Positions 1 through 30,103 of a DNA stretch of 64,000 nucleotides are shown one piece after another (the first letter of the stretch is position 1; each line of letters opens with the position of its first letter). Below the pieces are notes generated by a model. It was not told where the DNA came from. It ran no database searches and saw only the letters and a program-made list of their open reading frames with translations. Made by a program: the position numbers and the translations under genes. The DNA is from Escherichia coli (GTDB lineage: Bacteria > Pseudomonadota > Gammaproteobacteria > Enterobacterales > Enterobacteriaceae). The stretch lies in NCBI RefSeq assembly GCF_013122565.1, contig NZ_CP053258.1. One strand, given 5' to 3'.

Positions 1-1014
1 GTAGTGACTTTGGAGCAATTGCCTGACATTCGCGATTTAGAACGTCAACATGAGCGGGGAATTCAGCATGAAATTGAAAGAGTTAAAGCTGAACTACATC
101 GACTGAACATTGAGTTGACCAAACGTATGTCTGAAGCCAAACGTGTGGATACCGGGGCGCTCGTTGAGGCAGGGGCAGATTTGGACGATATTCCTGTTTA
201 TTTACAGCGTTTGCAGGAACTGACCGAAGAAGCCCTGCCGGAAAAGCTCAATCGCTTCCTTGATTATCTTAATCGTTCATCCGATGACGGCGTAACACAA
301 CTGCTTAGCCATATTGAGCATGAGGTGCTGGTAATTGAGGAGCGCCTCAATGAACTCAATGAAACCATGTTCAGGGTTGATTTTCAGCCGGATCGCTACC
401 TGCGTCTGGATACCAAAAAAGTTGTCCATGAAAGCCTGCGCACGCTTGAAAAAGCACAGCGTCAGCTAAATGCCGCACGATTTGTTGATGATAATGGCGA
501 GAGCCATTATAAGGCTTTGCAGGTACTGGTGGCGCAATTGCGGGATGCTTGTGAACGAAACCGTACCCTGGGAGCAAAAGCGCTACTGGATCCCCGTTTT
601 CGACTCGAGTTCGCCGTATCGGTGATGGATCGTCAGAGCGGAAATGTGATTGAGTCTCGTACCGGCTCACAGGGTGGTAGCGGCGGAGAAAAAGAGATCA
701 TCGCTTCTTACGTGTTAACAGCTTCACTTAGCTACGCACTTTGTCCTGCGGGGAGCCGTTATCCGCTTTTCGGTACCATTATCCTTGATGAAGCCTTCTC
801 CCGCAGTTCTCATGCGGTGGCGGGTAGGATCATTGCCGCGCTTAGAGAATTTGGCTTACATGCAGTATTTATCACCCCAAATAAGGAAATGCGCCTGCTG
901 CGTGACCATACTCGTTCGGCGATTGTTGTCCACCGGCGCGGTCAGAATTCCAATATGGCCTCTCTGAGCTGGGAAGAGCTTGAACGACACTACCAGCGAC
1001 GGGGGAACGCGTAG
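1..1014 (+). CDS. jetC: C-terminal fragment of an SMC-like ATPase, Wadjet JetC / MksB-like (5' end lies outside the window)
   Basis: Supplied ORF 4..1014 reads through the window start. The translation carries an ABC/SMC signature-like SGGEK, a Walker B IILDEAF and a downstream His (H-loop-like), which together look like the C-terminal head of an SMC/Rad50-type ATPase. It is immediately followed by a Toprim-type gene, the JetC-JetD order. Confidence 0.55.
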   Translation, partial: VVTLEQLPDIRDLERQHERGIQHEIERVKAELHRLNIELTKRMSEAKRVDTGALVEAGADLDDIPVYLQRLQELTEEALPEKLNRFLDYLNRSSDDGVTQLLSHIEHEVLVIEERLNELNETMFRVDFQPDRYLRLDTKKVVHESLRTLEKAQRQLNAARFVDDNGESHYKALQVLVAQLRDACERNRTLGAKALLDPRFRLEFAVSVMDRQSGNVIESRTGSQGGSGGEKEIIASYVLTASLSYALCPAGSRYPLFGTIILDEAFSRSSHAVAGRIIAALREFGLHAVFITPNKEMRLLRDHTRSAIVVHRRGQNSNMASLSWEELERHYQRRGNA

Positions 1015-1015
1015 G

Positions 1016-2164
1016 ATGTATTCCCCAGATGAATTGCGTGAAAAGCTTGCCCGGCAGTGGGATAGCGCAAAACTTCGGGCTGAACGCTTACTGTCCCCCG
1101 GTAACTGGCCGCTCTGCCTGCCTATTGGTAAACCTTCCACGAAAATATTTGCAGAGCAGACTCAGCGCGTTTTGCAGCACGTACAGCGATGGAGGCAAGT
1201 TGCGGTTGGGCACGTGGAATGGGAAGCGGTGAGTTTTCGGGCAAGTGATACACCAGTATTAATGCCGTTGCGCTGGATTCTGAATAGCCCTTCTGAGTGG
1301 ATCAACGCCGCTGCGGATCCGGTTGTGAGCCGGGAATTTCGCTTGCTGGAAGGAATTATTGAACAAGTTAATCCCATTTTTCACCCGCTGTTGGTAAAGC
1401 ATCGCTCTCTCTGGCGGCACAAAGATCCGCAGGGCGTCATCAGCGCCGCCACGCTGGCCTGCCGACTAGAGCCGGGCTGCGCAAAAGGGCTGCCGTTAAG
1501 ATTGCTTTCCGGGCAAGGAGTGGATACCAAATTTATCGAGAATAATATTTCGTTATTAACCCGACTGTTAGACGTGCGGTTTTCAGGAGAAGCCAGCGAG
1601 CAGGGATTAACAACTTTTCTTGATGCTTTTGATGAGTCCAGTCACTGGGTTTTAGTTGTACCATTATCACCCGGCTTACTTCCTTTTAAAAAATGCCGGG
1701 TAACAACGGCGGAACTGGCAGAAACAACATTACCCGCGTCGCAAGTGCTGGTGGTTGAAAATGAGCAGTGTCTGCATCATCTTCCAGCATTATCTGACAC
1801 TATCGCGATTTTAGGCTGTGGCCTGGACGTGCAATGGCTATCCAGTTCGGTTCTGGATGAAAAACGCGTTGCCTATTGGGGGGACATGGATAGCTGGGGA
1901 TTACTGATGCTGGCGAGAGCCAGGCGCTGTCGTCCGACCCTTGATGCCCTGCTCATGAACCGTGAGTTGTTTGAGCAGTATGCCAGTCATAGCGCCGTTC
2001 CAGAACCGGTCATAGCGAAGGAAGCGGTACCCGATGGCTTGCTTAACGAAGAGGCCGATTTTTATCGCTACTTAACCCGTTTACCGCGTGGTCGTCTGGA
2101 GCAGGAGTTTTTGCCAGTGGGGATTGCGGAAGAGGCGCTTCTCAGGTGGGGAAAAGAGAGTTAA
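1016..2164 (+). CDS. jetD: Wadjet JetD / MksG-like Toprim-domain protein (DUF2220-type)
   Basis: ORF 980..2164; the likely start is the ATG at 1016 (MYSPDEL), one base after the upstream stop codon. The C-terminal half has LVVENEQ and YWGDMDSWG motifs consistent with the Toprim acidic residues of JetD/MksG. About 382 aa, the typical JetD size. Confidence 0.55.
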   Translation: MYSPDELREKLARQWDSAKLRAERLLSPGNWPLCLPIGKPSTKIFAEQTQRVLQHVQRWRQVAVGHVEWEAVSFRASDTPVLMPLRWILNSPSEWINAAADPVVSREFRLLEGIIEQVNPIFHPLLVKHRSLWRHKDPQGVISAATLACRLEPGCAKGLPLRLLSGQGVDTKFIENNISLLTRLLDVRFSGEASEQGLTTFLDAFDESSHWVLVVPLSPGLLPFKKCRVTTAELAETTLPASQVLVVENEQCLHHLPALSDTIAILGCGLDVQWLSSSVLDEKRVAYWGDMDSWGLLMLARARRCRPTLDALLMNRELFEQYASHSAVPEPVIAKEAVPDGLLNEEADFYRYLTRLPRGRLEQEFLPVGIAEEALLRWGKES

Positions 2165-2520
2165 AAAAGTCATGCTTGTTCTGGAAGGTTATTTACGCGG
2201 TATTTTGGTAGTGGTTGCGAAAAGTCTGCGTTGATGGTCCTGATACCTTACCGGATAGAGGGACTTTCCATCAGTCAGTTTAGATACTGTGGCAACTGTC
2301 GCCTTTAGGTGGACAAATGCATAAATTATTAAACTATTAAATTTCTTGTTTTCTGGCGGCAGAGAGAAGGTATATCAGAGGGTACTGAGGTGTATAAAAG
2401 TCACGAACATCCGTGAAAAGGCGAAAAAACCAGCCAATAGATAATGCTTTGCAACGGCCAGAAATCTACCGTAGCCAGAAAGTGAAAAAGCCCCGCTTTG
2501 CAGCGAGGCCTTATGAATAG

Positions 2521-2596
2521 TGGTGCCCGGACTCGGAATCGAACCAAGGACACGGGGATTTTCAATCCCCTGCTCTACCGACTGAGCTATCCGGGC
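2521..2596 (-). tRNA. pheV: tRNA-Phe (anticodon GAA)
   Basis: Reverse complement reads GCCCGGATAGCTCAGTCGGTAGAGCAGGGGATTGAAAATCCCCGTGTCCTTGGTTCGATTCCGAGTCCGGGCACCA: a 76-nt cloverleaf with a GAA anticodon loop and 3' CCA. Placement next to yqgA/speC indicates pheV rather than pheU. Confidence 0.9.
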
Positions 2597-2701
2597 AACG
2601 GGGCGCATTAAACCTGATTCGCCTCGTCTCGTCAATCAAATTTCTTCAATTTACTGCAGACTGCACAATCTATCATCACTTTGCCGATATTGCACGCATT
2701 G

Positions 2702-3409
2702 TCAGGCAAACCAGGCGGTCCAGGCGGCGGAAAGCGGCATTGCCAGAAGGAGTGCTGGAAGCATGTTGACCACCGGGAACATTTTAATGCCACAGATGCG
2801 TAATCCGGTTGCCAGCAGCAATAAACCGCCTACGGCGCTGAAGTCTGCCATCATCGACGGTGTGGTCAGCGGTAATATCAGCGCGGCAGCCCATGCCAGC
2901 GTTAACTGGATGATCAGTAATGGGATACTAATTACCGACACCGCGATGCCCAAAGAGCAGGCGAAGATCATCGCCGTAAAGAAATCAAGAAATGACTTGG
3001 CGATTAAAATACTCGGATCGCCGGTCATCCCTTCGTTCATCGCCCCGAAGATCCCGGTGCCGCTGGCGCAAAACAGGACAATAATCGCCACATAATTCTG
3101 AATAAAAGATTCATGCGCTGGCGTCTTACGTGAGTGACGAAACAGATTTTGTGCTTTGGCGACTGCTGTATTGACACCTTTCTCCAGCAAACAAATTTCG
3201 CCAATTAGAGCGCCAAGTAGCGTAGCTAAAACCATCGCTGGAAGGTTGGCGCATTTCACCACCAGTAAAATACCAATCCCCAGCGATGCCAGACCAAAAA
3301 TAGATGTCATGGAGACGCGGATACGTTCCGGTAAGCGTTGGCTGAGCAGTGCGCCGAGAACGCCACCCAGTAAGACTGCACTAGCGTTGATAAAAGGGCC
3401 GATGACCAC
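2702..3409 (-). CDS. yqgA: DMT-superfamily inner membrane protein YqgA
   Basis: 235-aa hydrophobic ORF; the length and the position between pheV and speC match K-12 yqgA. Confidence 0.8.
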   Translation of the reverse strand: MVIGPFINASAVLLGGVLGALLSQRLPERIRVSMTSIFGLASLGIGILLVVKCANLPAMVLATLLGALIGEICLLEKGVNTAVAKAQNLFRHSRKTPAHESFIQNYVAIIVLFCASGTGIFGAMNEGMTGDPSILIAKSFLDFFTAMIFACSLGIAVSVISIPLLIIQLTLAWAAALILPLTTPSMMADFSAVGGLLLLATGLRICGIKMFPVVNMLPALLLAMPLSAAWTAWFA

Positions 3410-3806
3410 AAGAGTTCCTGTTAACTGTATTGTCTGATTTTCTTATTATGAACTTTTTGCCTTGTTGATGGCTTGTCTGGTCGCAAAGACCTGGCTTGCA
3501 CGCTTTAGCGAAAGGTGCCATGATTGCGCGAATTTTCTCCTCTCTGTACGGAGTTTGCCCGATGCACGCCACCTCCTTACATTCTCTCGCTTATCGCCGT
3601 TTCGCGCGAAACTCTTCTCTTTTTATGCTACTACTCATGCGGTGAAGTTAACGCACGCTCACTGCAGGACAACAGTAAAATCAGAGCGTTTCTGCTTTTA
3701 CTGATGTCTGGCGGTCGGAGCTGGTGACCAGTTTGACCCATATCTCATGGGGCAGGGTTTTCCACCTTGTCCGGTATTCTTACTTCCCCGAAACGGGTTT
3801 GCGCTT

Positions 3807-5942
3807 ATGAAATCAATGAATATTGCCGCCAGTAGTGAACTGGTATCCCGACTTTCTTCTCATCGTCGCGTGGTGGCGTTGGGAGATACTGATTTTACGG
3901 ACGTCGCGGCAGTCGTCATTACCGCTGCGGATAGTCGCAGTGGCATTCTTGCGTTGCTTAAGCGCACCGGTTTTCATCTACCGGTGTTTTTGTATTCCGA
4001 ACATGCTGTTGAATTACCTGCGGGCGTTACGGCGGTAATCAATGGCAACGAGCAGCAGTGGCTGGAGCTGGAATCCGCAGCCTGTCAGTATGAAGAGAAT
4101 TTGCTGCCTCCGTTTTATGACACGCTGACGCAGTACGTTGAGATGGGCAACAGCACCTTTGCTTGCCCTGGGCATCAACATGGTGCGTTTTTTAAAAAGC
4201 ATCCTGCCGGACGCCATTTTTACGATTTCTTTGGTGAGAACGTCTTTCGCGCCGATATGTGTAATGCTGACGTAAAATTGGGCGATCTGCTTATTCATGA
4301 AGGATCGGCGAAAGATGCGCAGAAATTCGCAGCCAAAGTCTTTCATGCCGATAAAACCTATTTTGTGCTGAACGGCACATCGGCAGCGAATAAAGTGGTG
4401 ACGAATGCGCTGTTAACGCGTGGCGATCTGGTGCTCTTCGACCGTAACAACCATAAGTCGAATCATCACGGCGCGTTGATTCAGGCGGGGGCGACGCCGG
4501 TCTATCTGGAAGCTTCACGTAACCCGTTTGGTTTCATTGGCGGTATTGATGCGCACTGTTTTAATGAAGAGTATCTGCGCCAGCAAATTCGCGACGTTGC
4601 GCCAGAAAAAGCCGACCTGCCGCGCCCGTTTCGCCTGGCGATTATTCAGCTGGGAACCTATGACGGCACTGTCTATAACGCCCGTCAGGTGATCGATACC
4701 GTTGGGCATCTGTGTGATTACATTCTGTTTGATTCCGCGTGGGTCGGTTACGAACAGTTTATCCCGATGATGGCGGATAGCTCGCCGCTGCTGTTAGAAC
4801 TTAACGAAAACGATCCGGGGATCTTTGTGACTCAGTCGGTGCACAAACAGCAGGCGGGATTCTCACAGACGTCGCAGATCCATAAAAAAGATAACCATAT
4901 CCGCGGACAGGCGCGTTTTTGCCCGCATAAGCGGTTGAATAATGCCTTTATGCTCCATGCTTCTACCAGCCCGTTCTACCCGCTGTTTGCCGCGCTGGAC
5001 GTTAACGCCAAAATTCATGAAGGGGAGAGTGGGCGTCGGCTGTGGGCTGAGTGCGTTGAGTTGGGTATTGAGTCGCGCAAGGCTATTCTTGCGCGCTGTA
5101 AGCTGTTCCGCCCGTTTATCCCGCCCGTTGTTGATGGCAAATTGTGGCAGGATTATCCGACATCAGTGTTAGCCAGTGACCGCCGTTTTTTCAGTTTTGA
5201 GCCGGGGGCGAAGTGGCACGGCTTTGAAGGATATGCCGCGGATCAGTATTTTGTTGATCCGTGCAAGCTGTTACTCACTACACCAGGTATCGATGCCGAA
5301 ACTGGCGAATATAGCGACTTTGGCGTTCCGGCGACGATTCTGGCGCACTATCTGCGTGAGAACGGCATTGTGCCGGAGAAGTGCGATCTCAACTCCATTC
5401 TGTTCTTATTAACTCCGGCGGAAAGCCACGAGAAGCTGGCACAACTGGTGGCGATGCTGGCGCAATTTGAACAGCATATTGAGGATGACTCGCCGCTGGT
5501 CGAGGTGTTGCCGAGCGTTTATAACAAGTATCCGGTGCGCTATCGCGACTACACCCTGCGCAAGTTGTGTCAGGAGATGCACGATCTGTATGTCAGTTTC
5601 GACGTCAAAGACCTACAAAAAGCGATGTTCCGCCAGCAGAGTTTCCCGTCAGTGGTGATGAACCCCCAGGATGCGCATAGCGCTTATATTCGCGGTGACG
5701 TGGAGTTGGTGCGGATTCGTGATGCCGAAGGGCGAATTGCGGCAGAAGGGGCATTGCCTTATCCACCTGGCGTGCTGTGCGTGGTGCCTGGAGAAGTATG
5801 GGGCGGGGCGGTACAGCGTTATTTCCTTGCACTGGAAGAAGGCGTGAATTTGCTACCAGGATTTTCGCCGGAGCTGCAAGGTGTTTATAGCGAAACCGAT
5901 GCGGATGGCATGAAACGGTTGTACGGTTATGTGTTGAAGTAA
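3807..5942 (+). CDS. speC: Ornithine decarboxylase, constitutive
   Basis: ORF 3747..5942; the translation from the internal ATG at 3807 (MKSMNIAASSELV...) gives the 711-aa SpeC as I recall it. Fold type I PLP decarboxylase. Confidence 0.9.
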   Translation: MKSMNIAASSELVSRLSSHRRVVALGDTDFTDVAAVVITAADSRSGILALLKRTGFHLPVFLYSEHAVELPAGVTAVINGNEQQWLELESAACQYEENLLPPFYDTLTQYVEMGNSTFACPGHQHGAFFKKHPAGRHFYDFFGENVFRADMCNADVKLGDLLIHEGSAKDAQKFAAKVFHADKTYFVLNGTSAANKVVTNALLTRGDLVLFDRNNHKSNHHGALIQAGATPVYLEASRNPFGFIGGIDAHCFNEEYLRQQIRDVAPEKADLPRPFRLAIIQLGTYDGTVYNARQVIDTVGHLCDYILFDSAWVGYEQFIPMMADSSPLLLELNENDPGIFVTQSVHKQQAGFSQTSQIHKKDNHIRGQARFCPHKRLNNAFMLHASTSPFYPLFAALDVNAKIHEGESGRRLWAECVELGIESRKAILARCKLFRPFIPPVVDGKLWQDYPTSVLASDRRFFSFEPGAKWHGFEGYAADQYFVDPCKLLLTTPGIDAETGEYSDFGVPATILAHYLRENGIVPEKCDLNSILFLLTPAESHEKLAQLVAMLAQFEQHIEDDSPLVEVLPSVYNKYPVRYRDYTLRKLCQEMHDLYVSFDVKDLQKAMFRQQSFPSVVMNPQDAHSAYIRGDVELVRIRDAEGRIAAEGALPYPPGVLCVVPGEVWGGAVQRYFLALEEGVNLLPGFSPELQGVYSETDADGMKRLYGYVLK

Positions 5943-5946
5943 GAAT

Positions 5947-5981
5947 AAAAAAAACGGGTCACCTTCTGGCGACCCGTTTTT
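5947..5981. terminator. Bidirectional rho-independent terminator between convergent speC and nupG
   Basis: AAAAAAAACGGGTCACC-TTCTG-GCGACCCGTTTTTC: a GC stem flanked by an A-run on one side and a T-run on the other. Confidence 0.5.
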
Positions 5982-5991
5982 CTTTGCGTAA

Positions 5992-7248
5992 TTAGTGGCT
6001 AACCGTCTGTGTGCCTGTCGGGACACGAACGTGTTTATATTTGAACATCGCCATGAACGCGAAGGCCAGAACCACGGAGTAACCAGCGAAAATCAACCAT
6101 ACGGTCTGCCAGTCGGTAATGCCGTTTTGGGTGTACATCTCAACAACTTTACCGCTCACGATGCCGCCGAGGATACAGCCGAAGCCGTTAGTCATCATCA
6201 GGAACATCCCCTGCGCACTGGCGCGAATCGCCGGGCTAACTTCTTTTTCGACAAACACCGAACCAGAGATGTTGAAGAAGTCGAACGCACAGCCGTAAAC
6301 AATCATCGACAGAACCAGCAGTACGGTGCCGAACGGAGTCGGGTCGCCGTAAGCAAACAGCGCAAAACGCAGGATCCACGCCACGATACTGATCATCATT
6401 ACGTTCTTAATGCCGTAGCGGCTTAAGAAGAACGGGATGGTCAGAATGAACAGGGTTTCAGAGATCTGCGAAATCGACATGATGATTGACGCATGCTGCA
6501 CAATAAAGCTGCTGGCAAACATCGGATCTTTGTCGAAGCTGTGCAGGAAGGTATTACCGAACATATTGGTAATCTGCAGTTCCGCGCCCAGCAGCATTGA
6601 GAAGATGAAGAAGATGGCCATACGCTTGTTTTTAAACAGCGCGAATGCATCGAGGCCCAGCAGGGTTGTCCAGCTCTGATTCGCTTGCTGTTTAGCAACC
6701 GGAATATGCGGCAGAGTCAGGGTAAACAGAACCAGAATGGCGGAAAGTGCTGCGCCAATATACAGCTGCATGTGGCTTAATTCGAAGCCAGACAGGCTCA
6801 CCACCCACATTGCCATGATAAAGCCGATGGTGCCCCAGATACGGATTGGCGGGAAGTCAGTAACGATATCCATCCCGGCATTTTGCAGGCGATAGTAAGA
6901 GATGGTGTTGATTAACCCAAGCGTTGGCATATAAGCAAACGAGTTAATCAATATCACAAGGAACATCGCTTCCGGCGTCGTGACCTGTGCCGCCATGAAC
7001 AGCGTGATAGCGCCAATGGTGTGGCAAATGGCATATACCCATTTCGCACTTAACCATTTGTCGGCCACAATCCCCAGCAGCGCAGGCATAAAGACCGCGG
7101 CGATACCCAGTGAACTATAAACTGCGCCAATAGAAGCACCGTCAAACTTCAGGGTAACAAACATATAGGAGCCGAGGGTCGTCAGCCAACTTCCCCACAG
7201 ACAGAACTGCAGAAAAGAGAGGATTTTCAGCTGCAGCTTAAGATTCAT
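5992..7248 (-). CDS. nupG: Nucleoside:H+ symporter NupG (MFS)
   Basis: ORF 5992..7296 trimmed to the MNLKLQLKILSF start, giving 418 aa; matches NupG. Confidence 0.9.
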   Translation of the reverse strand: MNLKLQLKILSFLQFCLWGSWLTTLGSYMFVTLKFDGASIGAVYSSLGIAAVFMPALLGIVADKWLSAKWVYAICHTIGAITLFMAAQVTTPEAMFLVILINSFAYMPTLGLINTISYYRLQNAGMDIVTDFPPIRIWGTIGFIMAMWVVSLSGFELSHMQLYIGAALSAILVLFTLTLPHIPVAKQQANQSWTTLLGLDAFALFKNKRMAIFFIFSMLLGAELQITNMFGNTFLHSFDKDPMFASSFIVQHASIIMSISQISETLFILTIPFFLSRYGIKNVMMISIVAWILRFALFAYGDPTPFGTVLLVLSMIVYGCAFDFFNISGSVFVEKEVSPAIRASAQGMFLMMTNGFGCILGGIVSGKVVEMYTQNGITDWQTVWLIFAGYSVVLAFAFMAMFKYKHVRVPTGTQTVSH

Positions 7249-7449
7249 GTTAATTTCCTCACATCGTGATGCGGATGAGTGTTTGAAAAAGCACATTTGA
7301 CCGTGCGAGATGATGGGATTCTATCAACTTCGCGGACTGGTTTTTTGTTACCTGTGGCAAATAATTGCAAACATTCCCAATTTGCAAAACGAAATTGTGA
7401 TGTGGATAACATTTTTGCCCCTGAGCATCGTCAGGGGCGGTTAGTGGAA

Positions 7450-8556
<1,107 letters not shown>

Positions 8557-8593
8557 TTATGCAAGTTGCCGGAGGCGTGCTCCGGCACTGTTT

Positions 8594-8872
<279 letters not shown>

Positions 8873-8896
8873 TCATCCTCTTTATCGACTCACGCG

Positions 8897-9949
8897 CTAA
8901 ACCGGCGCGCCAGTGCGTAACTGCTGTAACAAACGCTCCACGGGAGCCGCCAGGCCAACTGACGGCGGTTGCGCTAAGTTATACCAGAGCGCATTGCCTT
9001 CATCCATGCAGCCGGTGAATGACGACACGGGAAGCCACATAGGCACAATATCTAAGTGGAAATGGCTGAAGGTATGGCGAAACGCGGTCAGTTGCGTCAG
9101 GTTATCGGCAGCAATCTGCCGTTGCGCCAGCCACTGCCGCAAACTTTCTTCGTCGGCAAACTGCGGGAAACAGTATAAACCGCCCCACAATCCGCTCGGC
9201 GGACGCTGCGCCAGCAATACTTCATCTTCGTGCTGTAACAGCAGAAAGTAGCCGGTGCGCTCCGGCAGCGTCTGTTTCGGTTTTTTGCCCGGATAAAGCG
9301 ACCAGCTATTATTGGCGGCGGCAATACATCCGTTTTGTAGCGGACAGAGCGAACATTTCGGCTTCGAGCGCGTACAAATCATCGCGCCCAAATCCATCAT
9401 CGCCTGATTAAACCGTTCCACGCCGACCGCGGGCGTCACCTGCTCGCTCAAACTCCATAATTTATTCTCGACCTCTTTTTTCCCAGGCCAGCCGCTTACA
9501 GCATAGCAGCGTGCCAGCACGCGTTTGACGTTACCGTCGAGAATCGGAAAGTGCTTACCCAGAGAAAGCGAGAGAATCGCGCCTGCGGTGGAACGCCCGA
9601 CGCCCGGTAACGCCGCGACTTCTTCAAAGGTTTCCGGGAATTTACCGCCGTGTAAGGTCGCCACTTGTTGTGCCGCTTTATGCAGATTGCGCGCGCGGGC
9701 GTAATAGCCAAGCCCGGTCCACAAGTGGAGAACTTCGTCCAGCGGCGCATTGGCGAGATCGGTCACCGTTGGGAAGCGCGCCATAAAGCGTTCAAAATAG
9801 GGGATAACGGTCGCAACCTGAGTTTGTTGCAACATCACTTCTGAGAGCCATACTTTGTAGGGCGTCTTGTCAATTTGCCAGGGCAGCGTTTTCCGCCCGT
9901 ATTTATCGTACCAGTCCAGAACCTGGGCTGAAAATTGCGACGCTTGCAT
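8897..9949 (-). CDS. mutY: Adenine DNA glycosylase MutY
   Basis: ORF 8897..9979 trimmed to the [14 protein letters not shown] start (350 aa); HhH-GPD motif and a C-terminal Cys cluster. Confidence 0.9.
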
Positions 9950-10109
9950 GGTCACCGAATTCACTGTTGTTGGGGGCAAGATTGCAGCACAGCGACGGCA
10001 GGGTGTAAACCGGAACTTTCCGCAGCCACGGCCTTATCATGCTTGCATCCGGCAACTAACTTTGGATAATGCCCGTTTTCAGAACACTTTCACAAGCGAC
10101 TAAATCTTT

Positions 10110-10829
10110 ATGAAAAACGACGTCATCTCACCGGAATTTGATGAAAACGGCCGCCCACTGCGCCGTATCCGTAGTTTTGTGCGCCGCCAGGGGCGACTGA
10201 CCAAAGGCCAGGAACATGCGCTGGAAAACTACTGGCCGGTGATGGGCGTTGAGTTCAGCGAAGATATGCTGGATTTCCCTGCGCTTTTTGGCCGTGAAGC
10301 GCCGGTGACGCTTGAGATTGGTTTTGGCATGGGGGCGTCGCTGGTGGCAATGGCTAAAGATCGCCCCGAGCAGGACTTCCTCGGCATTGAAGTGCATTCA
10401 CCGGGCGTTGGTGCGTGCCTGGCTTCTGCGCATGAAGAGGGCTTAAGCAACCTGCGCGTGATGTGTCACGATGCGGTTGAAGTGCTGCATAAAATGATTC
10501 CTGACAATTCATTGCGCATGGTGCAGCTCTTTTTCCCTGACCCGTGGCACAAAGCGCGCCATAATAAACGCCGTATCGTTCAGGTGCCGTTTGCCGAACT
10601 GGTAAAAAGCAAACTGCAGCTGGGGGGCGTATTCCATATGGCGACCGACTGGGAACCTTATGCAGAACATATGCTTGAAGTGATGTCTTCTATTGACGGT
10701 TATAAAAACCTGTCAGAGAGCAATGATTACGTACCGCGTCCGGCATCACGTCCGGTGACGAAATTTGAACAACGTGGTCATCGTCTTGGTCACGGAGTAT
10801 GGGACTTAATGTTCGAGAGGGTGAAATAA
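10110..10829 (+). CDS. trmB: tRNA (guanine46-N7)-methyltransferase
   Basis: 239-aa ORF; SAM-dependent methyltransferase; divergent from mutY as in K-12. Confidence 0.9.
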
Positions 10830-11155
10830 TGGCAAAGAACCGTAGCCGTCGTCTGCGTAAAAAAATGCACATCGACGAATTCCAGGAATTAGGATTTTCG
10901 GTGGCATGGCGATTCCCGGAAGGTACATCGGAAGAACAGATTGATAAAACCGTTGATGATTTTATTAACGAGGTTATCGAACCGAACAAACTGGCCTTTG
11001 ACGGCAGCGGTTATCTGGCTTGGGAAGGTCTGATCTGCATGCAGGAAATCGGCAAATGCACCGAAGAACATCAGGCGATTGTGCGTAAGTGGCTGGAAGA
11101 GCGCAAACTGGAAGAGGTACGCACCAGCGAACTTTTCGACGTTTGGTGGGACTAA
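10829..11155 (+). CDS. yggL: DUF469 protein YggL
   Basis: ORF 10799..11155 trimmed to [18 protein letters not shown] (108 aa); its start overlaps the trmB stop codon. Confidence 0.85.
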   Translation: MAKNRSRRLRKKMHIDEFQELGFSVAWRFPEGTSEEQIDKTVDDFINEVIEPNKLAFDGSGYLAWEGLICMQEIGKCTEEHQAIVRKWLEERKLEEVRTSELFDVWWD

Positions 11156-11177
11156 GAAAGCATACGGGCGATGACAA

Positions 11178-11275
11178 ATGCAAAACTGCCTGATGCGCTA
11201 CGCTTATCAGGCCTACAAAGATGCACGATGGAGTAGGCCGGATAAGGTGTTTACGCTGCATCCGGCATGGAAAAC
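11178..11275. repeat. REP/BIME palindromic elements
   Basis: GCCTGATGCGCTACGCTTATCAGGCCTACA and TAGGCCGGATAAGG...CATCCGGCA motifs typical of enterobacterial REP sequences. Confidence 0.6.
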
Positions 11276-11338
11276 GCGCACTTTGTTATCAATCTGGGGC
11301 CAGCAAATGCTGGCCTGATTTGTTCTTGAGGGAAGACT

Positions 11339-12058
11339 ATGATGCGCAAAATGCTGCTGGCGGCAGCACTTTCAGTGACGGCAATGACCGCTCACGCCGA
11401 CTACCAGTGCAGCGTCACGCCGCGTGACGATGTGATTGTCAGCCCGCAAACCGTGCAGGTGAAGGGCGAAAACGGCAATCTGGTGATCACGCCAGACGGC
11501 AACGTGATGTATAACGGTAAGCAATATTCCCTGAATGCCGCCCAGCGCGAGCAGGCGAAGGATTATCAGGCTGAACTCCGTAGCACCCTGCCGTGGATTG
11601 ATGAAGGCGCGAAAAGCCGCGTCGAAAAAGCCCGTATTGCGCTGGATAAAATTATCGTTCAGGAGATGGGCGAAAGCAGCAAAATGCGCAGCCGTCTGAC
11701 CAAACTTGATGCGCAGCTGAAAGAGCAGATGAACCGCATTATCGAAACGCGCAGCGATGGCCTGACGTTTCACTATAAAGCCATTGATCAGGTTCGCGCC
11801 GAAGGCCAGCAATTAGTGAATCAGGCAATGGGCGGAATTTTACAGGACAGCATTAATGAAATGGGCGCGAAAGCGGTGCTGAAAAGCGGCGGTAACCCAT
11901 TACAGAATGTGCTGGGAAGCCTGGGGGGACTGCAATCCTCAATCCAAACCGAGTGGAAAAAGCAGGAAAAAGATTTCCAGCAGTTTGGCAAAGATGTTTG
12001 TAGCCGCGTTGTGACTCTGGAAGATAGCCGCAAAGCCCTGGTCGGGGATTTAAAATAA
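11339..12058 (+). CDS. yggN: Periplasmic protein YggN (DUF2884)
   Basis: 239-aa ORF with an N-terminal signal peptide; position between yggL and ansB. Confidence 0.85.
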   Translation: MMRKMLLAAALSVTAMTAHADYQCSVTPRDDVIVSPQTVQVKGENGNLVITPDGNVMYNGKQYSLNAAQREQAKDYQAELRSTLPWIDEGAKSRVEKARIALDKIIVQEMGESSKMRSRLTKLDAQLKEQMNRIIETRSDGLTFHYKAIDQVRAEGQQLVNQAMGGILQDSINEMGAKAVLKSGGNPLQNVLGSLGGLQSSIQTEWKKQEKDFQQFGKDVCSRVVTLEDSRKALVGDLK

Positions 12059-23362: not shown

Positions 23363-24757
23363 TTAATCGTGAGCGCCGATTTCGCGCAGTTTACGACCTT
23401 TCATCAGATTACGTTCAATATGTTCCAGCGAAACGTGTTTGGTTTCCGGCACCAGCCACAATGTCAGCAGGATAAACAGTACGTTCAGAGCCGCATACAC
23501 CCAGAAGGTGTTGGCGTTACCCAGCGTGTTGAGCATGGTCAGGAACGTTGCGCCAACGATCATGTTGGCAATCCAGTTGGTGGCGGTGGAGCAGGTGATG
23601 CCAAAATCGCGGCCTTTCAGCGGCTGAATTTCGGAGCACAGTACCCAAATCAGCGGACCGGCACTCATGGCAAAACCGACAATAAACATCAGGAGCATGG
23701 CGATGGCGAAATACTGCGCCGACGGAGAGTGGATACCGATATGCATCATTGTACCGAGTACGCCCATACCAGCAGCCATCACCAGGAAGCCCAGCGTTAG
23801 CGTTGGTTTACGTCCCCAGCGGTCAACAAGGCCGATTGCGATAAAGGTGGCAAGTACGTTGGTCAGGCCGACAATCACTGTCCCCCACATTTGCTCGGTG
23901 GTGTTGGTATAACCCGCCAGTTCGAAGATTTTCGGCGCGTAATACATGATGACGTTCATCCCGGTGAATTGCTGCATTACCTGTAACAGTACGCCAAGGA
24001 ACACCGCGCGGCGGAAGTTGCTATTCTCTTTAAACAGCGCCCAGCCACTCTGTTTAACCTGCAAACTTTCACGGATTTCATCCAGTTCGCGTTTCGCTTC
24101 CGCGCTGGTGTCACGCAGGCGTAGCAGCACGCGTTCGGCATCAACAAAACGGCGTTTGGCGGCAAACCAACGCGGGCTGTCTGGCAGGAAGAAGACACCA
24201 ATCAGCAGCAAAATTGCCGGGATGATAATCACACCCAGCATCCAGCGCCATGCACCGGTGTAGCTGAAGGCGGTATCAGAAAGATAAGCACCGAGGATCC
24301 CGATAGTGATCATCAACTGATACATCGAGATCATACTGCCGCGAATTTTTTCCGGCGCAATTTCAGAGAGGTACAGCGGCGCGGTATAAGAGGCCACACC
24401 CACCGCCAGCCCCAGCAGAACGCGGGAAAGAATCAGTACTTCAACGTTTGGCGCAGCCGCAGAGAACAGTGAACCGGCAACAAACAAAATTGCGCCGATC
24501 ATCAGGCTCTTTTTGCGCCCGAGTTTAAAGGAGAGCCAGCCGCTGCCCACCGCACCGACTGCCGCACCGAACATCATGGAGCTTACGACCCATTCTTGCG
24601 TGTGCGAAGTAATCTGGAATTCATCTGCAATAAACGGCAGTGCGCCAGCAATTACACCGATATCCAGGCCAAAGAGTAATCCCGCCAGAGCAGCAAGGAA
24701 GCAGACGAAAAACGTCATTGCCTTGTTTGACCGCCCCTGTTTTTTAGCGTCAGGCAT
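23363..24757 (-). CDS. galP: Galactose:H+ symporter (MFS sugar porter)
   Basis: ORF 23363..24769 trimmed to [12 protein letters not shown] (464 aa); 12-TM sugar porter signature. Confidence 0.9.
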
Positions 24758-24839
24758 GATGCCCTCCAATATGGTTATTTTTTATTGTGAATTAAGATAG
24801 GTGAGTACGACGTAAAAAGATGTGAAGCAAATCACATCA

Positions 24840-24855
24840 GTGTAATCGCTTACAC
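24840..24855. promoter_or_regulatory. Candidate GalR/GalS operator in the galP promoter region
   Basis: GTGTAATCGCTTACAC, a near-perfect dyad of the GalR operator type, lies about 85 bp upstream of the galP start. Confidence 0.4.
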
Positions 24856-25144
24856 TAACATTTATCTTGGTTATGATTTAAGTGCATGAAAATAATTGAG
24901 TTATATCATCATAGATCAAACGCTGTTATCTGCAATTAAGACTTTACTGAAAAGAAATGTAACAACTGTGAAAGCCGAATAATAATATGAAAATATTACA
25001 AATCTTTGTCTGTTGTGGTTGGTGTAATCGGTTTCAGTTGTGATGATAATTTGCGGTGAAACGTGATCAGGAAGAATGATGTTATTGTGCGGGCGGTTTT
25101 TTTGCTGGGTGCGGCGTGAACGCCTATCCACCGCGGTGAGGTAA

Positions 25145-25175
25145 AAGAAAAAGGCCAGCGCGAGGCTGGCCTTTG
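25145..25175 (-). terminator. Rho-independent terminator downstream of metK
   Basis: GGCCAGCCTCGCGCTGGCC stem followed by a T-run when read on the minus strand. Confidence 0.45.
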
Positions 25176-25193
25176 AAAGCAGGTGAAGAAAGA

Positions 25194-26348
25194 TTACTTC
25201 AGACCGGCAGCATCGCGCAGCAGCTGCGCTTTGTCGGTTTTTTCCCACGGGAAATGTTCACGACCAAAGTGACCGTATGCTGCGGTTTCTTTGTAGATCG
25301 GGTGCAGCAGATCCAGCATCTGAATCAGACCGTATGGGCGCAGGTCGAAGAACTCACGTACCAGCAGAGTCAGTTGTTCAGAAGGCACTTTCTCAGTACC
25401 GAAAGTTTCTACCATGATGGAAGTCGGTTCAGCCACGCCGATTGCGTAGGAAACCTGAATTTCACAACGATCGGCCAGGCCAGCAGCAACGATGTTTTTT
25501 GCAACATAACGTGCTGCGTACGCAGCGGAACGGTCCACTTTTGATGGATCTTTACCAGAGAATGCACCGCCACCGTGACGCGCCATGCCGCCGTAGGTAT
25601 CAACGATAATTTTACGACCAGTCAGACCGCAGTCACCCATTGGGCCACCGATAACGAAACGACCGGTCGGGTTGATGAAGAATTTGGTGGCAGAAGTCAG
25701 CCATTCAGCGGGCAGAATTGGCTTGATGATCTCTTCCATTACCGCTTCTTGCAGCGATTTCTGGTCGATCTCTTCAGAGTGCTGAGTGGAAAGCACGACA
25801 GCATCAATACCAACGATTTTGCCGTCGTCATACTGGAAAGTCACCTGGCTTTTCGCGTCCGGGCGCAGCCACGGCAGAGTGCCGTTTTTACGCACTTCAG
25901 CTTGACGCTGTACCAGACGGTGTGCATAGGTGATAGGTGCTGGCATCAGCACGTCGGTTTCATTAGTTGCGTAGCCAAACATCAGACCCTGGTCACCCGC
26001 GCCCTGTTCCAGCGGATCGGCACGGTCAACGCCCTGGTTGATGTCAGGAGACTGTTTGCCGATAGCGCTCAGAACCGCACAGGAGTTAGCGTCAAAGCCC
26101 ATGTCGGAATGTACATAGCCAATTTCGCGAACGGTGTTACGGGTGATCTCTTCGATGTCTACCCAGGCGCTGGTGGTGATTTCGCCGCCAACTAAAACCA
26201 TGCCGGTTTTTACGTAGGTTTCGCAAGCAACGCGTGCTTTCGGATCCTGTTCGAGGATCGCGTCTAAAACGGCATCAGAAATTTGGTCAGCAATTTTGTC
26301 AGGATGCCCTTCAGAGACGGACTCGGACGTAAAAAGGTGTTTTGCCAT
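25194..26348 (-). CDS. metK: S-adenosylmethionine synthetase
   Basis: ORF 25194..26360 trimmed to [18 protein letters not shown] (384 aa). Confidence 0.9.
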
Positions 26349-26403
26349 ATTTAATATCACCTAAAGAGAATTTGGTTAGCTCAAACTGTTGTGTGGATTT
26401 TCT

Positions 26404-26655
26404 GTGGTAGCGGATCCTACCACGACTCTGCAGGTTAAAAACACTGGCAGTCTGAGTGTTAATCGGTATGGATGGATTAACATCTGGATGGCTATTTTAG
26501 GTCAATTCTTCACCCGATTTCCACTTTTTTTTGAATCGTGTCTCATTCTGCTAAAAACGTGGCTGGAAATTTTTCCTGACAATGCCGGCATTCTGCGTAT
26601 TTATCTTTTGCAATTTTCTGCCATTGTGGGGTATAAAACGCGGCGCGCGGCTTAA
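26404..26655 (+). CDS. yqgD: Small protein, probable YqgD
   Basis: ORF 26389..26655; an 83-aa product if started at the GTG at 26404. Position between metK and speA; weak support. Confidence 0.3.
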
Positions 26656-26867
26656 ATAAAAAGCACACGACGTTTCTTGCGTGTTGCCACTTCCAGCCGG
26701 GTTGAAATCAGAGTTTTGGCTTGTGGGTTCGTCTTAACAGGCGGCCGTGGAGGTGATACGAAATAATGAACCGTTGTCTGCTGCTTAACCTGTCTCACCG
26801 TTCTGGTGAAGATTCGTTCCCCGTACTCTGCATCTCTGCTTTGCATACCTGCCGATGTTATACCCAT
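26652..26867 (-). CDS. yqgC: Small protein, probable YqgC
   Basis: 71-aa ORF, the same length as K-12 YqgC as I recall it; weak support. Confidence 0.3.
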
Positions 26868-27002
26868 CTCGGCGCTTCTCAGGATTCAAGAGCTGGTTAC
26901 AGTTACTGAGGACTGAACAAGGGCGCTCTTGTAAAAACAAGAGTTTTCTCGTGGTTTCGCCGAACTGTCACACTTACGTTCGGTTATGTGCTTAATAATG
27001 TT

Positions 27003-27134
27003 ATGAAAAAGAAACCGGTTGCGCAGTTGGAGCGTCAGCATTCACTGCTGGAAAATCCATGTGCTTATGGGTTGTTATCGCAGTTCCAGGCTGCGATAGT
27101 CGTTAACTGTTTTACACTTAATAAAATAATTTGA
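27003..27134 (+). CDS. yqgB: Small acid-stress protein YqgB
   Basis: 43-codon [46 protein letters not shown] immediately upstream of speA; too short for the ORF track. Confidence 0.55.
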
Positions 27135-27142
27135 GGTTCGCT

Positions 27143-29119: not shown

Positions 29120-29136
29120 TTAAGATTATTCCGCTG

Positions 29137-29176
29137 GCGGGTCGATTTATTTACGTAAATCGGCCCGCTTTCTTTT
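29137..29176 (+). terminator. Rho-independent terminator after speA
   Basis: GCGGGTCGATTTA...TAAATCGGCCCGC inverted repeat followed by TTTCTTTTT. Confidence 0.45.
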
Positions 29177-29264
29177 TATATATTCTTAAAAATAATTTAG
29201 CTGCTTTTCTTATTAAATAATCTCCCTACAATCGCTGCATTAATTAAATGCAGAGGGAACGGTT

Positions 29265-29996
29265 ATGAAAAAATGGAAAGTACGTAGCGCGTTGATAGCA
29301 TTAGTCGTGCTGCTGGCCGGTTGTTCCAGTAATGCGCAGTATAATAGCAGTGCATCGGGCAATGTCGGCACCGCCTGGGGTGGGGATGTGCACTCATCGG
29401 TTCAGGGCGTATCTGCTGAACGAGCCTGGCGCGATCCTGCAGAGATGATCGTTATTAGTTATTCGACTAATGTTCCTTCCGGCTACGACCGCGTTTATAG
29501 CATTCGTATTAACGAACTGGAATATGCTATTCGCGATGGTAATTTTAATTCTCTACCTATTACGCGGGCTTATGATTCATCCAATAATGAACCACGCTAT
29601 ATTGTCCATGCCAGAGTCGGAATGAATTATCAATTATATGTCCGTAATTACAGTCGTAACACCAACTACGAGATCGTTGCTACGGTTGATGGCCTGGATG
29701 TGCTGAACGGCAAGCAAGGTTCGCTGAATAACAACGGCTATATTGTGAATGCCGGAGATTCTTTAGCGATTAAAGGATTCCGCAAAGATAAACATACCGA
29801 AGCGGCTTTTCAGTTCGCCAACGTTGCTGATTCCTACGCCGCCAATTCGGCGCAAGGCGATGTGCGTAATACCGGGGTAATCGGCTTTGCCGCCTTTGAA
29901 TTACAAGGCCCGGCGCAAAACGCGATGCCGACGTGCTCTGGACAAGCCTTTCCGGCGGACAACAATGGCTATGCGCCGCCACCGTGTCGGAAATAG
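29265..29996 (+). CDS. Hypothetical lipoprotein (accessory; no K-12 counterpart recalled)
   Basis: 243-aa ORF with an N-terminal signal peptide and lipobox (LLAGC), AGGGA ribosome-binding site upstream, and its own terminator downstream. No family recognised. Sits in a speA–speB spacer of about 1 kb, against roughly 0.14 kb in K-12 from memory. Confidence 0.55.
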   Translation: MKKWKVRSALIALVVLLAGCSSNAQYNSSASGNVGTAWGGDVHSSVQGVSAERAWRDPAEMIVISYSTNVPSGYDRVYSIRINELEYAIRDGNFNSLPITRAYDSSNNEPRYIVHARVGMNYQLYVRNYSRNTNYEIVATVDGLDVLNGKQGSLNNNGYIVNAGDSLAIKGFRKDKHTEAAFQFANVADSYAANSAQGDVRNTGVIGFAAFELQGPAQNAMPTCSGQAFPADNNGYAPPPCRK

Positions 29997-30061
29997 CAAC
30001 CTCGCTTGATGCCTCGCCCATTTAAGGCGATAATTAACACAAACTTGTGTTTCGCAAATCC

Positions 30062-30103
30062 AACCCTTCCTCGTCGGGCCTAACGACGCGGAAGGGTTTT
30101 TTT
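30062..30103 (+). terminator. Rho-independent terminator after the lipoprotein gene
   Basis: AACCCTTCC...GGAAGGGTT stem followed by TTTTTTT. Confidence 0.45.

What the first reader, a model, noticed from the sequence alone, without database searches (positions are those of the whole stretch)
2165..2520. Short spacer between the Wadjet operon end and pheV without an integrase
Islands at tRNA genes usually carry the integrase beside the tRNA 3' end. Here the tRNA 3' end faces the defence genes directly, with only about 350 bp of non-coding sequence. The integrase may lie at the far end, or this may be an integrase-less or decayed island.
Basis: inference. Interest (0 to 1): 0.3.

Follow-up and report, generated by a model that had tools for sequence, protein, structure and literature searches.

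The report
Decayed Wadjet island scar at pheV
The 356-base gap between the Wadjet plasmid-defence operon and the pheV tRNA gene is the leftover scar of an old tRNA-inserted genomic island that has lost its integrase and one of its two end repeats, which is an ordinary fate for such islands.

Summary
jetD ends at 2164, tRNA-Phe(GAA) (pheV) lies at 2521..2596 on the minus strand with its 3' end facing jetD, and the 356 nt between hold no gene.

The "integrase-less or decayed island" reading is supported. The "integrase at the far end" reading is not. In contigs with an identical JetD, the whole glcA-pheV interval (7.45 kb) is only jetABCD, with no integrase and no repeat of the pheV 3' end. K-12 has type II secretion genes there instead, and homology to K-12 stops 11 nt past the tRNA.

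In other enterobacterial genera the same operon also sits by tRNA-Phe:
- Four genera keep a 19-20-nt tRNA-Phe end repeat about 500 nt upstream of jetA. Erwinia has a perfect 65-bp repeat pair.
- Two genera keep integrase N-terminal fragments beside the tRNA.

The E. coli spacer is a mosaic scar. It holds a dead abiEi 5' end (2245..2336) and an arm (2362..2520) shared with integrase-bearing pheV islands, which carries the terminator now serving pheV. At the far end, the K-12-type pheV terminator survives next to glcA, but the repeat is deleted.

The operon is the biochemically characterised E. coli GF4-3 JetABCD. Overall this is an ordinary, decayed island of low novelty.

The parts
1..1014 (+). 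3' end of jetC (last 337 codons; the gene starts upstream of the window)
   Evidence: PADLOC JetC1, E 5e-161. Pfam SbcC_Walker_B. Matches residues 759-1095 of JetC in PDB 8as8/8q72.
1016..2164 (+). jetD (382 aa), the nuclease subunit of type I Wadjet and the last gene of the operon
   Evidence: PADLOC JetD1, E 5e-194. Pfam DUF3322 + JetD_C. Identical to PDB 8q72 JetD(E248A) of E. coli GF4-3 except for the engineered residue.
2165..2244 (.). Sequence just past jetD with no homologue outside the E. coli genomes that carry this Wadjet block
   Evidence: Found only in 24-26 of 5426 complete E. coli genomes, always in this context. No match in the other-genus loci beyond the first 12 nt or so.
2245..2336 (-). 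Dead 5' end of an abiEi-like antitoxin gene plus about 20 nt of its upstream region (a deletion scar)
   Evidence: blastn gives 81.7% over 93 nt (E 1e-18) to Kluyvera L036 13028..13118, which is the start of a Pfam AbiEi_3 gene lying between jetD and tRNA-Phe. tblastn matches the first 18 codons at 61% identity with two in-frame stops.
2362..2520 (-). tRNA-proximal island arm (attL side), shared with integrase-bearing pheV islands
   Evidence: About 87% identical in roughly 116 E. coli genomes, directly next to pheV. In the one locus of this class that was read in full (NT1F10, L008), an island with a site-specific integrase follows; CP52E (L054) has the same arm without an integrase.
2457..2520 (-). 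64-nt block immediately after pheV, holding the terminator now used by pheV (hairpin 2487..2512, minus strand) and two TTTCTGGC repeats
   Evidence: 100% identical to the first 64 nt of the pheV-integrase spacer in O157:H7 TR01. Terminator-like site found. Repeats found. K-12 has a different terminator at this position.
2521..2596 (-). pheV, tRNA-Phe(GAA). Its 3' 19-23 nt (2521..2543) are the attachment core used by pheV islands.
   Evidence: ARAGORN and Rfam. In seven genomes (H2-H8) the match to the window stops at 2543 and does not reach pheV. In the two that were read (JNEC-KY202 L002, and TB06052 L011), a CP4-type island follows. L002 shows a 19-nt repeat ATTCCGAGTCCGGGCACCA at the junction.
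2702..3409 (-). yqgA (DUF554), the conserved chromosomal flank on the other side of pheV
   Evidence: Pfam DUF554. Same gene order as K-12.

Best explanation
The spacer is a deletion scar inside a decayed, now immobile, tRNA-Phe genomic island whose surviving cargo is the type I Wadjet operon jetABCD.

Inferred history:
1. An island with a P4-type tyrosine integrase next to the tRNA integrated at the 3' end of pheV. It carried further cargo (an AbiE toxin-antitoxin module or similar) and jetABCD at its distal end. It brought its own copy of the tRNA 3' end and a terminator.
2. Deletions then removed the integrase and most of the cargo. What remains is 356 nt: the island-borne arm with the terminator that now ends pheV transcription, a dead abiEi 5' end, and about 80 nt of unassigned sequence.
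3. At the distal end, a deletion of about 180 nt removed the end repeat (attR) and the first 147 nt or so of the island. This fused the old native pheV terminator, which still sits about 130 nt downstream of glcA, to the jetA leader.

With one attachment site and no integrase, the block cannot excise. It can move only by homologous recombination of the flanking core genes. pheV itself is intact and still accepts new islands, which then push the Wadjet block away from the tRNA.

Shown directly: the gene order, the absence of an integrase and of a repeat, the homologies of each spacer segment, and the repeats and integrase fragments in other genera.

Inferred: the order of events, and that all the remnants come from one island rather than from several stacked ones.
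For: 1. It is an island relative to K-12. K-12 has pheV-yghD...yghJ-glcA. Homology to the window type stops 11 nt past pheV and 7 nt before the glcA stop.

2. The whole glcA-pheV interval in contigs with the identical JetD is jetABCD only, with all four ORFs intact, no integrase and no repeat.

3. The same operon (JetD 85-90% aa identity) lies beside a tRNA-Phe in the same orientation in five genera: Erwinia, Leclercia, Mangrovibacter, Kosakonia and Kluyvera.

4. A 19-20-nt tRNA-Phe 3'-end repeat lies 490-510 nt upstream of jetA in Erwinia, K. grimontii, Pluralibacter and Cedecea. In Erwinia sp. ErVv1 a perfect 65-bp repeat pair brackets a 10.3-kb island.

5. Integrase N-terminal fragments lie between tRNA-Phe and the Wadjet operon in Leclercia (aa 3-188) and Mangrovibacter (aa 1-50, 78% identity, 197 nt from the tRNA).

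6. The spacer is built from remnants. The abiEi 5' end matches at E 1e-18. Positions 2362..2520 are 87% identical to the tRNA-proximal arm seen next to pheV in NT1F10, where an integrase follows. Positions 2457..2520 are 100% identical to the pheV-integrase spacer of O157:H7 TR01.

7. At the E. coli left junction there is a remnant of the K-12-type pheV terminator. Its 15-mer CGCCTTGTGGGCGGG is identical to the K-12 flank and has no match in the 64-kb window even with 2 mismatches. It sits 4 nt from the point (TCTTACGACA) where homology to the island leader begins. In the other genera that point lies 144-147 nt inside the repeat.

8. In JNEC-KY202 (L002) a later island lies beyond a 19-nt repeat that directly abuts the spacer, so the spacer was the tRNA flank when that island arrived.
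Against: - No relative with an intact integrase together with Wadjet and both repeats was found, so the complete progenitor is inferred and not observed.
- G+C content of the block (about 50-53%) does not differ from the E. coli backbone.
- The last four glcA codons are recoded synonymously and glcA has a different terminator in Wadjet-type genomes. This points to import of the whole interval by homologous recombination from a diverged relative, rather than in-situ integration in this lineage.
- The 64-nt block after pheV could be an old chromosomal allele of the pheV flank rather than island DNA. In Erwinia the same kind of sequence is present at both ends, and Kosakonia has a related flank.
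- The arm, the abiEi remnant and Wadjet could come from different stacked islands.
Confidence: 0.72

Rival explanations
1. The already integrase-less Wadjet block entered this E. coli lineage by homologous recombination, with crossovers in glcA and in pheV/yqgA. The donor was a diverged Escherichia or enterobacterial relative in which it already sat between glcA and pheV. Under this view no site-specific integration ever happened in this lineage. It concerns the route of arrival and is compatible with an island origin further back.
For: - The last four glcA codons encode the same residues (MLVS*) with different codons, and a different glcA terminator follows. This suggests the breakpoint lies inside a homologous but diverged glcA 3' end.
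- There is no repeat and no integrase.
- Kosakonia has the same jetD-tRNA-Phe-yqgA-speC arrangement without a repeat.
- The left junction occurs as two alleles (100% and 96.8%) among 13 genomes.
Against: - No donor with glcA next to jetA was found among the 38 loci from other species.
- The divergent stretch in glcA is only about 12 nt.
- The identity of the Wadjet block between lineages (98.5%) equals that of the flanking core, which also fits long vertical residence.
Confidence: 0.35
2. The spacer remnants belong to one or more different islands (NT1F10-type, AbiE-bearing) that integrated at pheV after Wadjet was already there and then decayed. Under this view the Wadjet operon was never linked to the lost integrase.
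For: - The three spacer segments have different closest relatives: Kluyvera abiEi, the NT1F10-type arm at 87%, and TR01 at 100% over 64 nt.
- Tandem accretion at pheV is directly seen in L002 and in CP52E (L054).
- In Cedecea, an integrase fragment lies outside the Wadjet island's repeat, so it belongs to a neighbouring element.
Against: - An island that integrated later would sit between pheV and a repeat, with the older flank beyond it. No repeat is present in the spacer.
- In Kluyvera an abiE module lies between jetD and tRNA-Phe in the same order, and in Leclercia and Mangrovibacter the integrase remnant is contiguous with the Wadjet cargo.
Confidence: 0.2
3. There is no island. Wadjet next to pheV is the ancestral state, and K-12-type genomes replaced it with the type II secretion cluster.
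For: G+C content is not atypical. Wadjet remnants occur in varied E. coli genomes at core-like divergence.
Against: - Only 24-26 of 5426 complete genomes carry the spacer.
- The K-12-type pheV terminator is the one shared with K. grimontii, Leclercia and Kosakonia flanks, and a remnant of it sits at the distal end of the E. coli Wadjet block.
- Relatives are bracketed by tRNA-Phe repeats.
Confidence: 0.06
4. The integrase lies at the far (jetA) end of the island, just outside the window.
For: None found. It was a reasonable prior because the window starts inside jetC.
Against: In L012-L015 (JetD identical; L014 100% and L012 99.84% identical to the window) and in H1, glcA lies 412 nt upstream of jetA, and tblastn finds no integrase.
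Confidence: 0.02

Closest known systems
tRNA-integrated genomic islands of E. coli at pheV with P4-type tyrosine integrases (pheV is hotspot #5, yghD-yqgA, in Hochhauser et al. 2023, PMC10121019)
   Same: The location is at the 3' end of pheV. It is absent from K-12. It carries defence cargo. It shares the tRNA-proximal arm with islands that carry an integrase.
   Different: There is no integrase, no distal repeat and no atypical G+C. Only 7.45 kb remain. The K-12 gene yghD that defines hotspot #5 is absent, so that survey's flank-based definition would not have registered this locus.
Integrase-less elements bounded by attachment sites (cis-mobilizable elements, CIMEs, as described for streptococcal ICE remnants; named here from my own knowledge)
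   Same: The Erwinia sp. ErVv1 relative is a 10.3-kb Wadjet island with a perfect 65-bp repeat pair and no integrase, which is the defining layout of such elements.
   Different: The window's copy has lost one of the two sites, so it cannot be excised even with an integrase supplied in trans.
Type I Wadjet JetABCD of E. coli GF4-3 (Liu, Roisne-Hamelin et al., bioRxiv 10.1101/2022.10.04.510915; PDB 8as8, 8q72)
   Same: JetD is identical and the JetC C-terminus matches. The relatives have the same four-gene operon. That system was shown to cleave circular plasmids below about 100 kb (abstract).
   Different: Nothing differs in the proteins. In the passages I read, the papers describe the operon but not its chromosomal context, and no paper in the library mentions Wadjet together with pheV.
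Wadjet-carrying mobile elements at the leuX hotspot (#37) in E. coli (Hochhauser et al. 2023)
   Same: Wadjet is cargo of tRNA-targeting elements. A Xenorhabdus homologue of this operon lies near tRNA-Leu(CAA) with an integrase fragment.
   Different: A different tRNA (Phe rather than Leu), and here the carrier element has decayed.

Membership tests
tRNA-integrated genomic island (integrase-mediated) | Lies directly at the 3' end of a tRNA gene | tested here: met
   The pheV 3' end at 2521 faces the block.
tRNA-integrated genomic island (integrase-mediated) | Absent from, or replaced in, closely related genomes at the same locus | tested here: met
   K-12 has yghD-yghJ there. Only 24-26 of 5426 genomes carry the spacer.
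tRNA-integrated genomic island (integrase-mediated) | Encodes a site-specific recombinase, usually beside the tRNA | tested here: not met
   tblastn finds no hit in the window or in L012-L015/L001, and the intergenic stretches (356 and 412 nt) are too short to hold one. Only fragments exist, in Leclercia and Mangrovibacter relatives.
tRNA-integrated genomic island (integrase-mediated) | Direct repeat of the tRNA 3' end at the distal boundary | tested here: not met
   None from glcB to pheV with up to 6 mismatches in 23 nt. It is present in Erwinia, K. grimontii, Pluralibacter and Cedecea relatives.
tRNA-integrated genomic island (integrase-mediated) | Base composition different from the host backbone | tested here: not met
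   G+C is 0.49-0.54 across jetABCD, like the flanks.
Type I Wadjet (JetABCD) | JetC (SMC-like ATPase) and JetD (Toprim-type nuclease) of subtype 1, in a jetA-B-C-D operon | tested here: met
   PADLOC JetC1 and JetD1. Pfam. jetA (DUF3375), jetB, jetC and jetD are contiguous in L012-L015. Identical to the PDB 8q72 subunits. jetA, jetB and the 5' part of jetC lie outside the window.
Cis-mobilizable integrase-less element (CIME-like) | Attachment sites at both ends, no recombinase | tested here: not met
   Only the pheV-side site remains in E. coli. The Erwinia relative does meet this feature.
AbiE toxin-antitoxin module | Intact abiEi and abiEii genes | tested here: not met
   Only about 18 degenerate codons of abiEi with two stops remain.

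The most novel reading that the evidence does not exclude
The Wadjet block belongs to a family of small, integrase-less tRNA-Phe islets. These spread among Enterobacteriaceae by borrowing the integrases of co-resident pheV or pheU islands. The Erwinia copy, with its perfect 65-bp repeats, would be the active form and the E. coli copy an anchored derivative. The long shared arm (tRNA 3' end plus 45-64 nt, including a terminator and TTTCTGGC repeats) would be the recognition module.
Probability: 0.15. Interest if true: 0.45.

Novelty: new member of a known kind. Interest (0 to 1): 0.22.

Why it matters
It explains the genomic setting of a much-used model system, the E. coli GF4-3 JetABCD nuclease. 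The operon is the last surviving cargo of a decayed pheV island. It is intact in this lineage and carries a jetA nonsense codon in the two RefSeq genomes I translated. It is eroded to fragments in at least nine other complete genomes.

More generally, it is a clear worked example of how a defence system becomes fixed in a chromosome after its vehicle decays, and of why hotspot surveys that rely on integrases, repeats or K-12 flanking genes can miss such islets. None of this is unexpected for specialists in genomic islands.

Tried and rejected
- Searched the window and the nearest contigs for any copy of the pheV 3' end, exact for 12-23 nt and fuzzy up to 6 mismatches. Only the tRNA itself was found.
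- tblastn with three integrases against the window and nearest contigs found nothing.
- Six-frame comparison of the spacer with integrases, the NT1F10 hypothetical protein, the Schlafen-like ATPase and other neighbouring ORFs gave only noise, apart from the abiEi start.
- Rfam at a permissive threshold over 1900..3800 found only the tRNA.
- The promoter scan of 1900..2800 found none. No plus-strand terminator was found after jetD.
- G+C profile showed no island signal.
- I looked for an 'empty site' genome (glcA, about 150 nt, then pheV) using the left-junction sequence. All 13 hits were Wadjet-type or its IS-disrupted derivatives.
- I followed the large island in JNEC-KY202 for 69 kb without reaching pheV and stopped.
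- I first read the RefSeq annotation as meaning jetC is broken in H1-H8. Direct translation of L001 and L002 shows jetC is intact there and only jetA carries a nonsense codon, at codon 206.
- I considered the TTTCTGGC repeats as integrase arm sites. The motif is over-represented across the whole window (11 found against 3 expected), and one copy sits in native flanks of other genera, so this stays a weak idea.

Full report
**1. The observation**

The window opens inside jetC.
- Positions 1..1014 encode the last 337 residues (PADLOC JetC1, E 5e-161).
- jetD follows at 1016..2164 (PADLOC JetD1, E 5e-194; Pfam DUF3322 + JetD_C).
- ARAGORN and Rfam place a tRNA-Phe(GAA) at 2521..2596 on the minus strand, so its 3' end at 2521 points at jetD.
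- The 356 nt between them (2165..2520) contain no credible ORF and no Rfam family. They hold one good intrinsic-terminator-like hairpin on the tRNA's strand (2487..2512).
- yqgA (DUF554), speC and nupG follow, which is the K-12 pheV neighbourhood.

**2. Is it an island, and where is the far end?**

In K-12 the order is speC-yqgA-pheV-yghD-yghE-yghF-yghG-pppA-yghJ-glcA. Homology between the window and K-12 stops 11 nt past the tRNA 3' end.

A look-up of the exact JetD protein found four contigs.
- L014 is 100% identical to window 1..2550. L012 is 99.84% identical over 12.2 kb.
- All four show glcB-glcA-jetA(498 aa)-jetB(249)-jetC(1095)-jetD(382)-spacer-pheV-yqgA-speC.
- The whole interval that differs from K-12 is 7.45 kb and contains only the Wadjet operon. 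Homology to K-12 resumes 7 nt before the glcA stop.
- From glcB to pheV there is no second copy of the pheV 3' end, even allowing 6 mismatches in 23 nt or 3 in 15.
- tblastn with three integrases taken from pheV islands finds no integrase in these contigs or in the 64-kb window.

The "integrase at the far end" alternative is therefore refuted for the nearest relatives.

**3. The state of the locus in E. coli**

Of 5426 complete genomes, 143 have any part of the spacer and 24-26 have most of it. The configurations seen were:
- Eight genomes match at least 94% of window 1..2700, which covers the jetC 3' end, jetD and the spacer (H1-H8, about 98.5% identity). The two whose full locus I read (L001, L002) carry the complete jetABCD block. 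jetA has a nonsense codon at position 206 in both, and jetC is intact by direct translation although RefSeq splits it.
- Other genomes keep progressively shorter right-hand remnants, always anchored at pheV: glcA fused to jetD (MB53), IS1-jetD' (PT62), T6SS tssL'-jetD' (14EC033), and T6SS genes fused to the spacer at 2256 (UTME-3, TB06052).
- CP52E keeps the opposite end instead. A jetA 5' fragment next to glcA is followed by an IS3 element and the NT1F10-type arm beside pheV.
- In seven genomes (H2-H8) the match ends at 2543, 23 nt into the tRNA. In JNEC-KY202 (L002) a CP4-type island of at least 69 kb follows, joined through a 19-nt repeat ATTCCGAGTCCGGGCACCA that abuts the spacer. TB06052 (L011) also has a CP4-type island beyond the spacer.

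The last point shows that the spacer was the tRNA flank when that island integrated, and that pheV remains a usable attachment site.

**4. What the spacer is made of**

- *Positions 2457..2520.* The first 64 nt after pheV, including the terminator, are 100% identical to the start of the 198-nt pheV-integrase spacer in O157:H7 TR01.
- *Positions 2362..2520.* These are about 87% identical to the sequence next to pheV in roughly 116 genomes. In NT1F10, the locus of this class that I read in full, a hypothetical gene and a site-specific integrase follow. That divergence is far above the 1.5% or so seen in the core, which points to related but distinct mobile elements.
- *Positions 2245..2336.* These match, at 81.7% over 93 nt (E 1e-18), the start of a Pfam-confirmed abiEi gene that lies between jetD and tRNA-Phe in Kluyvera. 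The window's copy keeps about 18 codons with two stops.
- *Positions 2165..2244.* This stretch has no relative outside these E. coli genomes.

The K-12 pheV terminator (AACCCGCCCACAAGGCGGGTT) is a different sequence from the one in the window.

**5. Relatives in other genera**

A scan of one genome per species found the same operon, with JetD at 85-90% and JetA up to 97% amino-acid identity. The hosts were Pluralibacter, Cedecea, Erwinia sp. ErVv1, Klebsiella grimontii, Leclercia, Enterobacter, Mangrovibacter, Kosakonia and Kluyvera.

*Association with tRNA-Phe.* In five of these genera a tRNA-Phe lies downstream of jetD in the same convergent orientation, 0.24-4.1 kb away. In Kosakonia the gap is 237 nt and is followed by yqgA-speC, as in the window.

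*Distal repeat.* In Erwinia, K. grimontii, Pluralibacter and Cedecea, a 19-20-nt copy of the tRNA-Phe 3' end lies 490-510 nt upstream of jetA. Housekeeping genes lie beyond it where I checked, in Erwinia and K. grimontii. In Erwinia a perfect 65-bp repeat (20 nt of tRNA plus 45 nt of flank with the terminator) brackets a 10.3-kb island made of jetABCD and a Schlafen/AlbA_2-type ATPase gene, with no integrase.

*Integrase remnants.* Fragments sit in the canonical place between the tRNA-Phe and the Wadjet cargo.
- Leclercia keeps aa 3-188 of a P4-type integrase.
- Mangrovibacter keeps aa 1-50 at 78% identity, 197 nt from the tRNA. That is essentially the spacing in TR01, where it is 198 nt.
- No relative with an intact integrase was found.

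**6. The distal junction in E. coli**

Aligning the jetA upstream regions shows that E. coli shares the island leader with the other genera only from the motif TCTTACGACA (L014 4205) onward. In the other genera that motif lies 144-147 nt inside the repeat.

Four nucleotides to the left, E. coli has AAAAAACGCCTTGTGGGCGGGGG. Its 15-mer CGCCTTGTGGGCGGG is identical to the reverse complement of the K-12 pheV terminator and close to the sequence that flanks the repeat in K. grimontii. It has no match in the 64-kb window even with two mismatches.

The simplest reading is that the native pheV terminator was left at the distal end when the island integrated, as expected for an attR flank. A later deletion of about 180 nt then removed the repeat and the island's first 147 nt or so.

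**7. Mechanism and caveats**

Taken together, the spacer is best read as the scar of an island that lost its integrase and part of its cargo on the tRNA side and its repeat on the distal side.

What remains functional:
- the island-borne terminator serving pheV (inferred from sequence only);
- the Wadjet operon, whose proteins are those of E. coli GF4-3. JetD is identical to PDB 8q72 apart from the engineered E248A, and the JetC C-terminus matches 8as8/8q72. That system restricts circular plasmids below about 100 kb (abstract).

Three caveats apply.
- *Route of arrival.* The last four glcA codons are synonymously recoded and followed by a different terminator in Wadjet-type genomes. This hints that the interval, already decayed, may have entered by homologous recombination from a diverged relative.
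- *One island or several.* The three spacer segments have different closest relatives, so stacked islands cannot be excluded.
- *Origin of the 64-nt block.* It could be an old flank allele captured by islands rather than strictly island DNA.

G+C content gives no signal.

**8. Comparison with what is known**

pheV is a classical island site. It is hotspot #5 (yghD-yqgA, tRNA-Phe) in the E. coli defence-island survey. That survey reports Wadjet mostly at hotspot #37 (leuX) and AbiEii at hotspots #5, #33 and #37. A Xenorhabdus homologue of this operon near tRNA-Leu(CAA) with an integrase fragment parallels the leuX association.

No paper in the library mentions Wadjet together with pheV. In the passages of the GF4-3 paper that I read, the genomic context is not described.

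Decay of tRNA-linked islands by loss of integrase and repeats is well known. This is a new, well-documented instance rather than a new kind of element.

**9. Verdict**

- The "integrase-less or decayed island" interpretation is supported, and "integrase at the far end" is refuted.
- Novelty is low (new member of a known kind) and interest is about 0.2.
- The main added value is the link to the GF4-3 model system and the two-sided scar anatomy.

Noticed in passing
window 1..2164: The Wadjet proteins are those of the experimentally studied E. coli GF4-3 JET nuclease. JetD is 100% identical to PDB 8q72 except for the engineered E248A, and the JetC C-terminus matches 8as8/8q72. The window probably comes from GF4-3 or a near-identical strain.
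   Followed up: partly
window 2600..64000: The backbone is at best 97.0-98.5% identical to any of 5426 complete E. coli genomes, so the source is a poorly sampled, divergent E. coli lineage.
   Followed up: no
window 52000..64000 and 27000..52000: Only 245 of 5425 genomes cover at least 80% of 52000..64000 (scpA/scpC/meaB, a ferredoxin reductase family gene, LysR regulators). Only 2861 cover at least 80% of 27000..52000. Further variable segments therefore lie in the window, unrelated to this finding.
   Followed up: no
L001 and L002 15479..21014 (NZ_CP045712.1, NZ_AP045178.1): RefSeq splits jetC into a 5' 'partial' piece and a 448-aa 3' protein, but the ORF translates without a stop for 1095 codons. 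The real defect in these genomes is a nonsense codon at jetA codon 206. L001's tRNA-Phe also has an extra G in a G-run, which may be an assembly error.
   Followed up: yes
L018 3799..3863 and 14109..14173 (Erwinia sp. ErVv1): A perfect 65-bp direct repeat (tRNA-Phe 3' end plus terminator) brackets a 10.3-kb island carrying jetABCD and a Schlafen/AlbA_2-HATPase_c_4 gene, with no integrase. Two tandem tRNA-Phe genes follow. It is a candidate for mobilisation by an integrase supplied in trans.
   Followed up: partly
L014 4040..4204 (glcA 3' end and downstream): In Wadjet-type genomes the last four glcA codons encode the same MLVS* with different codons, and glcA has a different terminator hairpin than in K-12. 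The left-junction sequence occurs in only 13 complete genomes, as two alleles (100% and 96.8%).
   Followed up: partly
L006, L007, L010, L011 (E. coli 14EC033, UTME-3, GDSC2227PM, TB06052): Tad pilus, CS1-type fimbrial and type VI secretion genes lie to the left of jetD fragments or of the spacer. The fusion points correspond to window positions 1567, 2097 and 2256. This suggests another large accessory block once neighboured Wadjet in this hotspot.
   Followed up: no
window 2350..2357, 2457..2464, 2474..2481: Three copies of TTTCTGGC lie within 132 nt. Two are direct, next to the terminator, and are conserved in TR01 and NT1F10-type islands. The motif is also enriched window-wide (11 found against 3 expected), so its meaning is unclear.
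   Followed up: partly
L026 15458..16023 (Xenorhabdus sp. BG5): A 69%-identical JetD operon lies about 4.8 kb from a tRNA-Leu(CAA) with an integrase N-terminal fragment beside it. This parallels the leuX preference reported for Wadjet elements in E. coli.
   Followed up: no
L017 13356..17549 and L019 13898..18214: Other cargo follows jetD in relatives: a 1397-aa protein with a weak NACHT match that falls below Pfam's cutoff (Cedecea), and a chaperone-usher fimbrial cluster (K. grimontii).
   Followed up: no
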